Of a stretch of DNA of 64,000 nt, positions 28,201-34,200 are shown one piece after another. Made by a program: the position numbers. This DNA is from Podarcis gaigeae (lineage: Eukaryota). Location of the stretch: NCBI GenBank assembly GCA_964106915.2, contig OZ066921.1; one strand, given 5' to 3'. The stretch's first letter is position 1; the number at the start of each line of letters is the position of its first letter.

Positions 28201-31200
28201 GTGTTTCTCTTGGGTCACCTGTACATCATGGATAGGGCAGCACTGTCCATTGTGTCAGAATTCGGTTTCTGGCCCCCCCATATGAATCTGCATTTCAGGA
28301 AATGCTTCTGTGACAATGAGGAGTCATGCAGCAGGTTATTTTTGCATTAGCACGGTTAAGTCTTCATTTCTAGACTTGCAGCGTTATCAGTGTAGCTCTA
28401 AAGCTGCAAGTTCACCACATGCCAAGCCCTGGGGTGATCTTGAGCAAGATAGTTCGAGTTTTGGGGGTTGTTTTTTTTTTGCTGGAGTTTTCTAGTTTTT
28501 TGTGCCCCCCCCCCCAATTCCATGGACTTGTGGACACCTTCATTTTTCACTTTTAGGCAAATGTCTGCTGAATACCTGTACTTTTTTAGAGAGAGAATTT
28601 GCTTTTATTCATTCTGACTCTTGTGGAGAATCTTTGGGCCTCTTAGACAAGCCTCTTGTTCTGTGTGCTTTGGGTTTGCTTTCTTTGCAGCTTCTAAAAT
28701 AGCCCCCCACCCTTTCTTTCTCTTGCTAGAATGTCATTGATGGGGATCTGTGTGAGCAGTTCAACTCCATGGAGCCCAACAAGCAGAAGAACGTGTCTGA
28801 AGAGCTGGACAGGACCCCACCAGAGGTGTCCAAGAAGCTGGAGGACATCCGCACCCGCTATGCTTTCTGAGAGGCGCCTTTTCAGGGACGTGGCTGGGAT
28901 TCCTGTTCCAAAGATGTTTTGAAGGGTATGAGCTTTTTTGGCCAGTTGCTCCCACTTTGGTACTCTTGTTTTCTTCCAGCGACTTGAAAGTCCAACCATG
29001 TCATCAACCTGTTCTGTCCATGCTGTTCCAGGAGTCAGTCAGGTTCTCCCAAGTGGCGAGGCCTCCCCTTTCAGGTGTGTTTCTGGCTCCACCCTTTTAT
29101 AGACAGTTTGGGTGCTGCACCCACTACCAACCTGCCCTTGGACAAGGCCCTGGTGCCCTTTCCTTGTCAAGTGAGCTAGCTAGATGAAGTCCCCTTTTCT
29201 GAGTTGGTAAGATATAAGCACAGGGACGTTAGGGCTCCTCCTCTTCTTCCATTGGCCAGTGTCTGGGAAGCCTTGTGGGCGTGGCTGGTGTAATTTTTCC
29301 ATCCTGCAGTTTTTATCTCTGTGTTTGTAAATAGAGTCTTGTACCAAGTTAGCCTTTTGTCTGCTGAAGAGATGGCCTGTATGATTCTGGCCATAGATTT
29401 TTCTTTAATAAAACCCAGCATCTGGATTAAAGGTTGGCTGACAAACCTGTTTGGTGACTTCTCTCATGAATTTTACCTGCTCCTGGGGACATGAGCTAGG
29501 GAGGAGCTACCAATGGCACATTAATTTCATGGGAGGATCAATCTTGTCATTCATTTTAAAATGCCACGTTTCCCTGCACTTGCAGTGTCTAGTATTAGGC
29601 TCTGTATTTCTCTAGAGATCTTACTCTCCATTTACTCTGCTGTGGAAGACTTGTTCAGCCCTCTCAGCTGTCCTAAGGATGTTTATACTTGAGTTCTGGA
29701 ATTGTCTCCCAACCTACCCTACCCTACCTACCCCTTCAGATAAGATAACGTTGTTATGTTTACTTTCCTCAAAAGCAAACCTTTTGCACTCCCTCCCTCC
29801 GAGCCATTATTCAGGCTGCATTACATGTGAATGACAGATCTCTTTGTTTCTATGGTGGGCTGACTACTTGTTTTAAATGTAATATAGGGGTTTGATTCAT
29901 ACGAGTCAGCCTGGCCCAATAGTCAGGGATAATGGGAGCTGTTTGCAAATATTTGGAGGGCACAGGTTCCTGACCTCTGGAGGACAGTGCAGATGTCTAT
30001 GGAACTTGTGACTGGCTGCAGCTCCTAAACACAGATACTTGCTTGAAGAGATACAAATGCCCTTCAGATATTATGGGGACCAGATGTTTAGTTCAAAATG
30101 TGCTGGCTGCTGAGAGATCAGTGTCTGGTTTTAATAGTCGTGAGCTCACCTTTAGTTGAGGTCCAGCTAGAAATACAGTGGAACCGGCAGCACTGCCCCT
30201 TGGTGGAATGGGCACTTGCCGGATCAGGCTATAGAGAACTTATGAGCAGTATTTTATTTAAGCCCAAAGCCAGGTGATTTCAGATCTAGAAATTGGGCCA
30301 AGGCTTTCTGGGCCTTTTTCAAAAGTTTCCTGGTGCTTCGGGTTGCTTTTGTTTCAAATGTCTTCACTGAACAATTACTTTAAAGGACTATTTCTCCTTC
30401 CATGTATGGATGTGGGAGTTCTGGATTGGATATCATCCATTTCAGAAGTAGAACTAACTAAGCAAATTCTCTTGTCAGCTGAAAATCTCTCTTTCGGCTA
30501 GGCTCTGACATGCTATGTCAAGCTGCCACACTGGACCTTCTCTGGCTCCAAGAAAAGGAGAGCCCATCCCATCAGAAGGGAGCCAGTAGCCAGTGAGGGA
30601 TTGCGGAAAAGGGAGTAACCTGTGTCTGGTTGGGAAGTCTCTTGCCCTCTTAGACAAGGCCAGAGCGGAGCAGCATGTAGCCTTTGAGGACTGCTGCTGC
30701 CCAGCTGCCTCATTAAGGTTGGGGCTGGTGGAGAGGCCTAACACAGCCCAGCCTTGAAATGGTTCAGTGATTAGGGGTGGGGATTGATGTGAAGGGCAAC
30801 TGTCAGTGACAAAGACCGTGGTAAAGCTTGCTGTGGGGAAGAACTATCTTCTATGCTGCTATAGTGGAAGCTACAGAAATAATACCCCTCAGACTTCACC
30901 CCCGTTACTTCTCCACATACACAAGCAGGCACACTTGGATATTCTATGGGCATGGAAATGCTGGTTTCTTGCTACAAGGTGTTGGAAATATGCAAATGGC
31001 TGTGAGAAGAGCTTTGGGGATTGATGCACTGGCTGGTACTGAAATCAGCAAGGCCCAGCTCCTTTCTCCTAGTCCAGGGGCTGGGGCTTTAGAGCAACAG
31101 CATTAGAAAAAGGCATGCCCCAGAAGGCTAAAAAACAACAACACATGCTTTTTGCTTTCCATGTGAGAAGATACAGAGACACAGCTATTGATTGCTACTT

Positions 31201-34200
31201 CCACTGTTGGAGGCAGTGTGCTTCTGAATACCAGTTGCAGGGAATCACATGAGGAGTTTCTATTGTGCTCTGCCTTTGAGTTTCCTACAGGCATCTGGTT
31301 TGTCTCTGCCAGAGCGGGATGGGTCTTTGCTACAATCCAGCAGGCTCTTATGCTCGTCTGAAATACACCTTAAGACATCTCTCTTAAGAACCCCTACTAG
31401 GCTAGAACTCTAGAAGGTGTTGCTTTGTTTTAAAAAAATACACTTACCTTTCGATTTCTGTAACCATAAATTCAGAATTGGAATGGCTGGGACAAATGTG
31501 TGTTAGCATTTGTGTTGTGATTCCAGTAGGGTTACAGGTAGGAAAACCACCTGTGGATGTTGTGTGCCTGGCCTGAAGAAACAACTGCTTTCTTCCTCTT
31601 ATGCGTAGGAGAGTAAGAATGGGTGGGATGGGGTGGGAGGAACCAATTTGCGTTAATTACAGTACAACTTTTTATTAATACTGGAATCTTCACAGTGCAT
31701 TCGTTACTTGTAGCAGTGACTATTTTAAATGAAGGGAGAGGATAATTAACTTTTAAGAATGAAAGAGGGTGGGTGGGTAAGGCCAGGGCTGCTAGCAAAA
31801 GGGGGGGGGGGTAGGGAAAATAAATTAGAAAAAAAGAACAAGTTAACAGCACCAGAATAGTTAACATCAGTTGAGAGAGACATTTTAAAGGGTTTTTTTC
31901 CTCTGTACAAAAAAATAAAATAAAAATAAAAAGCAAAATGCAAACATTTCTCACGCATTGTCACTGTTGTCATTTCTGGCCATGACAGGGAGGAGGGGGG
32001 CACCCACAGGAAGGTTGGTTGGTTAGAAACTAAACTGTTATTACTACGACAGTATAAGAGTTAAGGAGGCTACAACGTGACACCCACGCAAGCGCACATA
32101 AGACATCTGGGCTGTGGGGAGGGTGGAGGGGACTGCTGTGGCTCTATGTACAACAACGACAACACCAGGCCCTGCTGTGCCTTGCAGGAGCTAAGGATGG
32201 GGAGACGGGGAGGATCCAGCAAGAGGGAGCAGGCGCAGTTGTGCTTTCTCAGAGGCTTCTAGGCACCCCAGCCCTCAAGGGGCCTTGAGTTGGCTGGTTT
32301 GTATTCACCACCGCTGTGCTTTGCTTGTGCCTCACCACACAGCACTCAACGCTGTCCACAGCTGTGCTCTCACTCTACTTTAGAAAGGGTTGTTGACCAC
32401 CATGCTGCTGCTATGAGAAATGTGGTGGCATCTCTCTTGGAATAATTGTCACAAGCCCATCTTTCATTTTTTTCTTTGCATGGGTAAGCTCTGTACTCGA
32501 ATGCCTGGCCAGTTCAAAGACAAAGGAAGCCCCTAATGTCTAGCATGGGCTCTGCCTCCCCCACTTAGCCACCCCATATGTGCTACATCTGTGCTGTTCA
32601 GTGATCCTTGGATACTCAACAATCCCAGGAGAGGAAAGCAAGACATGCTCATTCTTGAGCCCAACAAACACAAAAGGTGGAGGTTATGCATCAGGGGCCG
32701 TTTAATGGACCCTCATTTGTTGAGGAAGCTTGATCTGTAAAGCATGAGACTCTTAACCCAGGGCCAGGCCCCATGTTGGACAAAAGATTTCTGTATTGCA
32801 AAGGGTTGGACTAGATGACCCTCATTGTTCCTTCCAACTCTACAATTCTGATTCCTTCCTAGTCAAAGCACAGGGAAAGGCGTCTCCCTCTTTCCCCCTC
32901 ACGTTAGACCACCTTATTTCCCAGCCACTGACTTTCCCCATCACTTTCTCTTTCTTTCAAGACTCCCCTTTCCCAACATCACTTTCCATTTGCCAACAGA
33001 GCCGATTTCTAGACTTTCTGGGACAATATCAGGGAGAGTACAAGGTAGAAGATCCAAGTCTCTTGCACTCTCCAGATCTGGGTATAAGATTACGTAACTA
33101 ATATAAATAAACTCAATGAATTTATCCAAACCCTTAAGTTGTTTCTGCGGGGCAACTTCTTCTGTTCCAAATTTGGGGAGGCAGGTGGAAGTAAGCAAAA
33201 CAGCTTAAAAAGTTGATAGGCACTATTTGTATTTATGTTCCTTCTGACTACCTGGCTTGCATGCCCTAAATTCCAGCCCTGCTGAACTCTTAACTCCCAT
33301 CAGGCCCAGAAACCGGCTAGCCCATGGTCAGCATTGATGGGAGTCTTAATAACATTGGAAGGTGAAAAGTTATCCATCCCTGGTCTAAAACAGTGAGAAA
33401 TGTGGATATTCTTACAGCAGCTGCATGGCCCAAGCTGGAGCTTCTGGCTGGGAGCTGCAATCCAACTTATGCTCCTTCAGCTCCAAGCACAAAGGAAGAA
33501 GCTGTGCTGAATATTCATTTGGTTATAGATCTGGAGGCCAAAACCAGAACAAGGGAGCTGGTCTGTTTCTGTAAATCCCCTCTGCCCCCATTTTTAAAGC
33601 CTGCTTGTGGCAATTCTTTCCTCACTTTCTGCTGGGACTCTAATTTCATGAGCAGGTCAGGGTGAATCGGGGAATCGTACTATGAATGCAATGTGGTTGA
33701 CCGTATAGCAGATCTGGCTAAGCAGCAGCAACATCGCCAAGAGGGTTGGTTCAGCTATTTCCCTCTCTGCAGATACTTTTAACCCCTTTCAAAGTATCCA
33801 CCCAATATTGACAAAATGGGGTGCCTTTTGATGCTGTTAGAAGAGGCACCCTGCCACACACTCACAGGCTTAGTCATAACCATACCCATACTTGGCCAAA
33901 ACAGGCTCACATTGGAAAAGGCAGAGGACACTGCCCCAGACCCAGCACTCCGCCTAACACTGCTTGGCAGCAGCCTCCCACAACAAAGATCTTTCCTATT
34001 CTTATCTGGAGATGCCAACAGTTGAACCTGGGACCTTCTGCATGCCAAGCAGGTGCTCTACCACTCTGCTACAGCCTTTCCAGTGACACCAGAACCTGTG
34101 AGCATCAGTTTAACAACCTTTGGCCTTGCCAGATGGTTGTAGGAGAATTCAAGAGCAGACACCCTTGGTCTTTGCACACACCCTGCTTTCAAAACCCTCT

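What the first reader, a model, noticed from the sequence alone, without database searches (positions are those of the whole stretch)
29430..31650. IL34 appears missing from its expected position between SF3B3 and MTSS2
Seen: the SF3B3 poly(A) signal (29407) and the probable MTSS2 poly(A) signal (31671) are only about 2.2 kb apart. In that gap I found no exon encoding the conserved IL34 motifs (LQYMKHYFP, LRYLW, HPS, VRPKALLDNC). Known (recalled human gene order): SF3B3(+), IL34(+), MTSS2(-), with IL34 tail-to-tail with MTSS2. Inference: IL34, the second CSF1R ligand that sustains microglia and Langerhans cells in mammals, has been deleted, eroded or relocated in this squamate lineage. If lost, tissue macrophages would depend on CSF1 alone. 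I cannot say whether this is already documented.
Basis: partly seen in the sequence, partly recalled or inferred. Interest (0 to 1): 0.75.

Follow-up and report, generated by a model that had tools for sequence, protein, structure and literature searches.

The report
IL34 gene absent from lizard locus
In this lizard sequence the neighbours of the immune signal gene IL34 sit almost end to end with no trace of IL34 between them, which matches a loss already published for all lizards and snakes.

Summary
SF3B3 (+ strand) ends with a TGA at 28868-28870 and an AATAAA at 29407. MTSS2 (- strand) ends with a TGA at 35366-35368, and its most distal AATAAA is at 31671. The window has no N. The spacer is 2.2 kb, or 3.3 kb if MTSS2 uses the ATTAAA at 32701. 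The two stop codons are 6.5 kb apart.

No IL34 was found. 0 of 1065 open frames matched an IL34 family in Pfam. The spacer shows no excess open reading frame, no CpG island and no repeats.

The MTSS2 exon is 96-98% identical to Podarcis proteins, so the window comes from a lacertid lizard.

The interpretation (IL34 deleted in squamates) is supported but not new. Pinheiro et al. (eLife 2020) reported the absence. Salve et al. (BMC Biol 2026) analysed 261 squamate assemblies, reads and transcriptomes, showed contraction of exactly this SF3B3-MTSS2 interval, and checked the locus in Podarcis muralis with long reads.

Limits: I had no IL34 reference sequence and no lizard genome, so relocation and extreme divergence rest on the literature. 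Verdict: real, ordinary, already known.

The parts
2011..28870 (+). SF3B3, residues about 130-1217, in 23 coding segments mapped exon by exon. The 5' end lies outside the window or was not detected.
   Evidence: tblastn with named SF3B3 proteins of Pristimantis (P0156) and Python (P0122). Pfam RSE1/DDB1/CPSF1 propeller and CPSF_A hits are colinear on +. PDB SF3B3 at E 3e-44.
28718..28870 (+). Last coding exon of SF3B3 with its stop codon TGA (28868-28870).
   Evidence: tblastn residues 1168-1217 of 1217. Stop codon read.
28871..29430 (+). Probable SF3B3 3' UTR, with AATAAA at 29407-29412 and ATTAAA at 29426.
   Evidence: Hexamer positions. Use of the site is inferred, not shown.
29430..31650 (.). 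Intergenic spacer where IL34 would be expected. No coding signal was found.
   Evidence: 0 of 77 ORFs of 20 aa or more match IL34 in Pfam at E up to 10. Longest ORF is 122 aa, reached by 111 of 500 shuffles. CpG o/e is 0.10-0.22. No repeat is shared with the rest of the window. No tandem repeats. 0 of the 4 longest + strand ORFs match any PDB chain at E up to 1.
31671..31676 (-). Distal poly(A) signal (AATAAA on the - strand), probably that of MTSS2.
   Evidence: It is one of only two - strand signals between 31600 and 35400.
32701..32706 (-). Alternative proximal poly(A) signal (ATTAAA on the - strand).
31650..35365 (-). Probable MTSS2 3' UTR: 3.7 kb if the distal signal is used, 2.7 kb if the proximal one is.
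   Evidence: Lies between the stop codon and the signals. Inferred; no transcript data.
35366..36160 (-). Last coding exon of MTSS2 with the WH2 motif and its stop codon TGA (35366-35368).
   Evidence: Pfam WH2 at E 7.9e-6. 96-98% identity to Podarcis MTSS2.
36469..62250 (-). Upstream MTSS2 exons (residues 43-434 of the P. muralis isoform), including the IMD domain exons.
   Evidence: tblastn. Pfam IMD hits.

Best explanation
The window is the SF3B3-MTSS2 locus of a lacertid lizard. IL34, which lies between these two genes in most other vertebrates, is gone. The two neighbours now converge tail to tail with only about 2-3 kb of featureless DNA between their 3' ends.

The most likely history is one segmental deletion in the squamate stem lineage, after the split from tuatara. 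It removed the whole gene, which is why no eroded exons remain. CSF1R signalling in these animals would then rest on CSF1.

Shown here: the flanks, their ends, contiguity of the sequence, and absence of IL34-like coding sequence in the window. Taken from papers: squamate-wide absence, no copy elsewhere, contraction relative to outgroups. Inferred: a single ancient deletion and the functional consequence.
For: - Flanks and stop codons are mapped.
- The window has 0 N.
- 0 of 1065 ORFs match an IL34 family in Pfam. These were: all 77 ORFs of 20 aa or more overlapping 29380-31720; all 77 ORFs of 20-39 aa in the rest of 28868-35368; and all 911 ORFs of 40 aa or more elsewhere in the window.
- The same scans recognised single exons of the neighbours: 16 of the 23 mapped SF3B3 segments and 6 of the 11 mapped MTSS2 segments.
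Two gave 0 hits. LRYLW gave 1 hit (LRYL-stop at 40252-40266, - strand), against a mean of 7.15 in 20 shuffles.
- The spacer has no ORF excess, no CpG island and no repeats.
- The closest proteins are from Podarcis.
- Salve et al. 2026 (PMC13005343, sections 7 and 8 read in full plus passages) covered 261 squamate assemblies. The SF3B3-MTSS2 distance ratios are contracted (adjusted p < 0.001). Long reads span the locus in Podarcis muralis, shown within a 5 kb frame, and in Naja naja. BLASTn of assemblies and reads found no IL34.
- Pinheiro et al. 2020 (PMC7717901, passages): IL34 is absent from the squamates examined.
Against: - I had no positive control for IL34. No tool gave me an IL34 sequence. 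That the Pfam copy holds an IL34 model is my recall (PF15036); a paper search for that accession found 0 papers.
- IL34 is only about 44-49% similar between human and sauropsids (Pinheiro et al.), so a strongly diverged exon could escape a single-exon scan.
- E-value limits differed between scans: 10; 0.5; 0.1.
- ORFs under 40 aa outside 28868-35368 were not scanned.
- Poly(A) site use is unverified.
- One 253-aa + strand ORF (33812-34570) inside the stop-to-stop interval is longer than chance, though it has no coding features.
- One weak chemokine (IL8 family) hit, E 0.062 and 13.9 bits against a cut-off of 21.3, lies on the - strand at 29408-29506. About 4-5 hits at that E-value are expected by chance among 77 queries.
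- The rest of this genome was not available.
Confidence: 0.9

Rival explanations
1. IL34 persists in the spacer, or overlapping the 3' UTRs, in a form too diverged for sequence methods to see.
For: The 6.5 kb between the stop codons could physically hold a compact gene. Salve et al. concede that some of their 53 genes may survive as highly diverged orthologues. The + strand ORF 33812-34570 is longer than chance: 1 of 300 local shuffles and 0 of 300 interval shuffles reach it.
Against: - No Pfam hit in 154 small and all larger ORFs of the interval.
- The spacer's ORF lengths are as in shuffles and it has no CpG island.
- The 253-aa ORF has no codon periodicity (p 0.08, against 1.8e-8 for the real MTSS2 exon). 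Its only Met residues are at positions 108 and 184.
- It has no Atlas hit and low recognition (1148). It has no relative among proteins of 139-443 aa. Its only PDB match is a chance one at E 0.36.
- The paper reports no transcript evidence for IL34.
Confidence: 0.03
2. IL34 was moved elsewhere in the genome rather than lost.
For: Intrachromosomal rearrangements at this locus occur in some Viperidae. Only 64 kb of this genome was visible to me.
Against: BLASTn of squamate assemblies and raw reads recovered no IL34, and the authors rule out translocation (PMC13005343 section 7). In this window, 0 of 911 ORFs of 40 aa or more outside the gap match IL34.
Confidence: 0.04
3. The short interval is an assembly artefact (a collapse or mis-join) that hides IL34.
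For: No read data were available for this window.
Against: - No N in the window.
- No tandem repeats in 28800-35400 and no dispersed repeat in the spacer.
- Composition is smooth across the junction.
- Both genes have complete 3' ends.
- The same arrangement is validated by long reads in a close relative, Podarcis muralis, and recurs across 261 assemblies.
Confidence: 0.03

Closest known systems
Squamate-wide loss of IL34 by segmental deletion (Salve, Sonal and Vijay, BMC Biol 2026; first noted by Pinheiro et al., eLife 2020)
   Same: Same flanking genes (SF3B3 and MTSS2), the same contracted interval of a few kb, no IL34 sequence, and a squamate host. The authors' long-read-validated example is a Podarcis, the genus closest to this window.
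   Different: Nothing of substance. The MTSS2 exon is 96% identical to the P. muralis isoforms and 98% to P. lilfordi, so the window may come from another lacertid. Whether this species is among the 261 assemblies is in supplementary tables that I could not open.
Intact IL34 locus of other vertebrates (COG4-SF3B3-IL34-MTSS2-VAC14)
   Same: The order and adjacency of the neighbours are as described in both papers.
   Different: IL34 itself is missing here.
Australian ghost shark locus (Pinheiro et al. 2020)
   Same: FUK, COG4, SF3B3, MTSS1L and VAC14 lie together with IL34 absent. The authors ascribe this to a local rearrangement. It looks like an independent parallel loss.
   Different: A different lineage. 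According to that paper, the ghost shark also lacks CSF1R and CSF1.

Membership tests
IL34 (interleukin-34 family) | Sequence match to the IL34 profile or to solved IL34 chains | tested here: not met
   0 of 1065 ORFs match. 0 of the 4 longest + strand spacer ORFs match any PDB chain at E up to 1. That the libraries hold IL34 is recalled, not shown.
   No hit in six frames of the whole window apart from one LRYL-stop, against 7.15 expected by chance.
IL34 (interleukin-34 family) | A spliced, expressed gene between SF3B3 and MTSS2 | not testable with these tools
   No transcript data. The spacer has no ORF excess and no CpG island.
Squamate IL34 segmental deletion | SF3B3 and MTSS2 directly adjacent and intact | tested here: met
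Squamate IL34 segmental deletion | The host is a squamate | tested here: met
   Best MTSS2 hits are Podarcis at 96-98%. Other lizards score 90-91%; turtles, crocodilians and birds 87-90%.
Squamate IL34 segmental deletion | Interval contracted relative to non-squamates | not testable with these tools
   Measured here as 2.2-3.3 kb between poly(A) signals and 6.5 kb between stop codons. No outgroup genome was on hand. The contraction is reported in PMC13005343.
Squamate IL34 segmental deletion | No IL34 elsewhere in the genome, reads or transcriptome | not testable with these tools
   Only 64 kb was held. Reported for squamates in PMC13005343.
SF3B3 | Closer to SF3B3 than to the paralogous DDB1/CPSF1 family, and complete at the C-terminus | tested here: met
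   E 3e-44 against 2e-4. Residues up to 1217 of 1217 are present. SNORD111 lies in an intron; that SF3B3 hosts it in human is my recall.
MTSS2 | IMD domain plus C-terminal WH2, and best hits named MTSS2 | tested here: met

The most novel reading that the evidence does not exclude
The spacer or the adjoining 3' UTR region is not empty. It would encode a lineage-specific product, such as a very diverged CSF1R ligand descended from IL34, or a new gene using the unusually long + strand ORF at 33812-34570.
Probability: 0.02. Interest if true: 0.6.

Novelty: already known. Interest (0 to 1): 0.12.

Why it matters
Squamates are a natural knockout of IL34, the CSF1R ligand that sustains microglia and Langerhans cells in mice. 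How lizards and snakes maintain those cells, and how CSF1R evolves with one ligand gone, are real questions. They have already been raised in print (PMC13005343, PMC7717901). This window adds one more consistent locus, not a new finding.

Tried and rejected
- Three guesses for the last SF3B3 exon (28496-28699, 28698-28919, 28618-28737) gave no PDB match. They were in the wrong frame or extent. tblastn then placed the exon at 28718-28867.
- Rfam found no RNA gene in the interval. Its only hit in the window is SNORD111.
- The 253-aa ORF 33812-34570 was followed up as a possible gene and rejected.
- A search for the Pfam accession of IL34 in papers found 0 papers, so the library's content stays recalled.
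- I did not read stop codons as X to scan whole frames. Open frames were scanned one by one instead.
- No direct search with an IL34 protein was possible, because no tool supplied one and sequence from memory is not accepted.
- Supplementary tables of PMC13005343 (species list, distances, BLASTn results) were not opened.
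Full report
**What is in the sequence.**
The window has no N. On the + strand, AATAAA lies at 29407 and ATTAAA at 29426. On the - strand, AATAAA (TTTATT on +) lies at 31671.

**The flanks.**
All gene models were examined exon by exon.
- SF3B3, Pfam evidence: single-ORF scans gave a colinear series on +. The first RSE1/DDB1/CPSF1 propeller appeared in 5 ORFs, the second propeller in 6 and CPSF_A in 5.
- SF3B3, identity: exon 24369-24665 matches solved SF3B3 chains at E 3e-44, against 2e-4 for DDB1.
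- SF3B3, extent: tblastn with named SF3B3 proteins of a frog and a python mapped 23 segments from 2011 to 28867. The last covers residues 1168-1217 of 1217, followed by TGA at 28868-28870.
- MTSS2, evidence: on the - strand, ORF 35369-36163 carries a WH2 motif. IMD pieces lie at 43085-43414, 44314-44559, 51507-51779, 51861-52100 and 62137-62379.
- MTSS2, closest proteins: the 265-aa exon finds proteins named MTSS2. Podarcis lilfordi scores 98% and P. muralis 96%; geckos, skinks and an anguid score 90-91%; crocodilians, turtles and birds 87-90%.
- MTSS2, extent: tblastn mapped 11 segments from 62250 down to 35369, corresponding to residues 43-687 of 687. The stop TGA is at 35366-35368. Exon 1 is not in the window.

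The window is therefore a lacertid lizard locus, not human.

**Size of the interval.**
The firm bounds are the stop codons: 28871-35365, 6495 bases. Between 31600 and 35400 the - strand has only two poly(A) signals, AATAAA at 31671 and ATTAAA at 32701. The spacer between transcripts is thus 2.2 kb or 3.3 kb. Which site is used is not shown.

**Search for IL34.**
I scanned three sets of stop-to-stop open frames against Pfam:
- all 77 frames of 20 aa or more overlapping 29380-31720, at E up to 10;
- all 77 frames of 20-39 aa in the rest of 28868-35368, at E up to 10;
- all 911 frames of 40 aa or more elsewhere in the window, at E up to 0.5 or 0.1.

None of the 1065 matched an IL34 family. In the gap, 9 of 77 frames had weak hits, all below the curated cut-offs; the best was DUF5543 at E 0.0057. 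One was a 20-residue match to the chemokine IL8 family (E 0.062, - strand, 29408-29506). About 4-5 such hits are expected by chance among 77 queries.

The single hit is LRYL-stop at 40252-40266, against a mean of 7.15 in 20 shuffles. The four longest + strand frames of the gap match no PDB chain at E up to 1.

**Nature of the spacer.**
- The longest frame is 122 aa, reached by 111 of 500 shuffles. The longest + strand frame is 93 aa, reached by 224 of 500.
- CpG observed/expected is 0.10-0.22 from 29001 to 32000.
- There are no tandem repeats in 28800-35400.
- Rfam finds nothing there.

**Limits of my test.**
- No tool supplied an IL34 sequence, so there was no direct tblastn and no positive control.
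- That Pfam and the PDB hold IL34 is my recall. A paper search for PF15036 found 0 papers.
- The protocol does detect single exons of conserved families: 16 of 23 SF3B3 segments and 6 of 11 MTSS2 segments. IL34 is much less conserved (about 44-49% similarity between human and sauropsids; Pinheiro et al.).
- No eukaryotic genome, read set or transcriptome was on hand.

**What is known.**
Two searches, for IL34 or IL-34 with squamat(e), returned 3 and 4 papers. A third, for interleukin-34, lizard and CSF1R, returned 7.
- Pinheiro et al. 2020 (PMC7717901, passages read) state that IL34 had been lost in Squamata. They describe the same synteny, and a similar IL34-less arrangement in the Australian ghost shark.
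- Salve, Sonal and Vijay 2026 (PMC13005343; outline, sections 7 and 8, one part of the reference list and passages read) analysed 261 squamate assemblies. They call IL34 their strongest case of loss.
- They show significant contraction of SF3B3-MTSS2 distance ratios in squamates, and validate the locus with long reads in Podarcis muralis (shown within a 5 kb frame) and in Naja naja.
- They found no IL34 by BLASTn in assemblies or raw reads. They report relaxed selection on CSF1R in several squamates.
- Their supplementary tables were not available to me. They may list this species and its interval length.

**Verdict.**
The mechanism I commit to is a whole-gene segmental deletion in the squamate stem lineage (confidence 0.9). 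The absence and the compact, intact flanks are shown here. The age, the single origin and the dependence on CSF1 are inferred or taken from the papers. The finding is already known, so interest is low.

Noticed in passing
window 1418-1500 (+): SNORD111 C/D-box snoRNA (Rfam RF00611, 46.6 bits, gathering score 46) inside an SF3B3 intron. That SF3B3 hosts it in human is my recall.
   Followed up: no
window 33812-34570 (+): A 253-aa stop-to-stop ORF antisense to the MTSS2 3' UTR, longer than chance: 1 of 300 local shuffles and 0 of 300 interval shuffles reach it. It has no Pfam, Atlas or protein-database relative and no useful PDB match. It has no codon periodicity (p 0.08). It sits in a C-rich patch and is probably a compositional accident.
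   Followed up: yes
window 47171-47902 (-): A 244-aa ORF in an MTSS2 intron. 3 of 300 shuffles reach it. No Pfam hit and no codon periodicity (p 0.16).
   Followed up: partly
window 27379-27684 (+): A reverse-transcriptase (RVT_1) fragment, E 1.3e-6 and just below the cut-off, in an SF3B3 intron. Probably a LINE relic.
   Followed up: no
window 39071-39274 (-): A stretch matching residues 292-363 of a gecko MTSS2 isoform (42% identity) but not the P. muralis isoform used. Probably an alternatively spliced exon. The surrounding 38-40 kb is G+C-rich, with low-complexity frames on the + strand.
   Followed up: no
window 32785-32845; also 19663-19723 and 43388-43446: A short dispersed repeat of about 60 bases, 78-82% identical, in the MTSS2 3' UTR region and in introns of both genes.
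   Followed up: no
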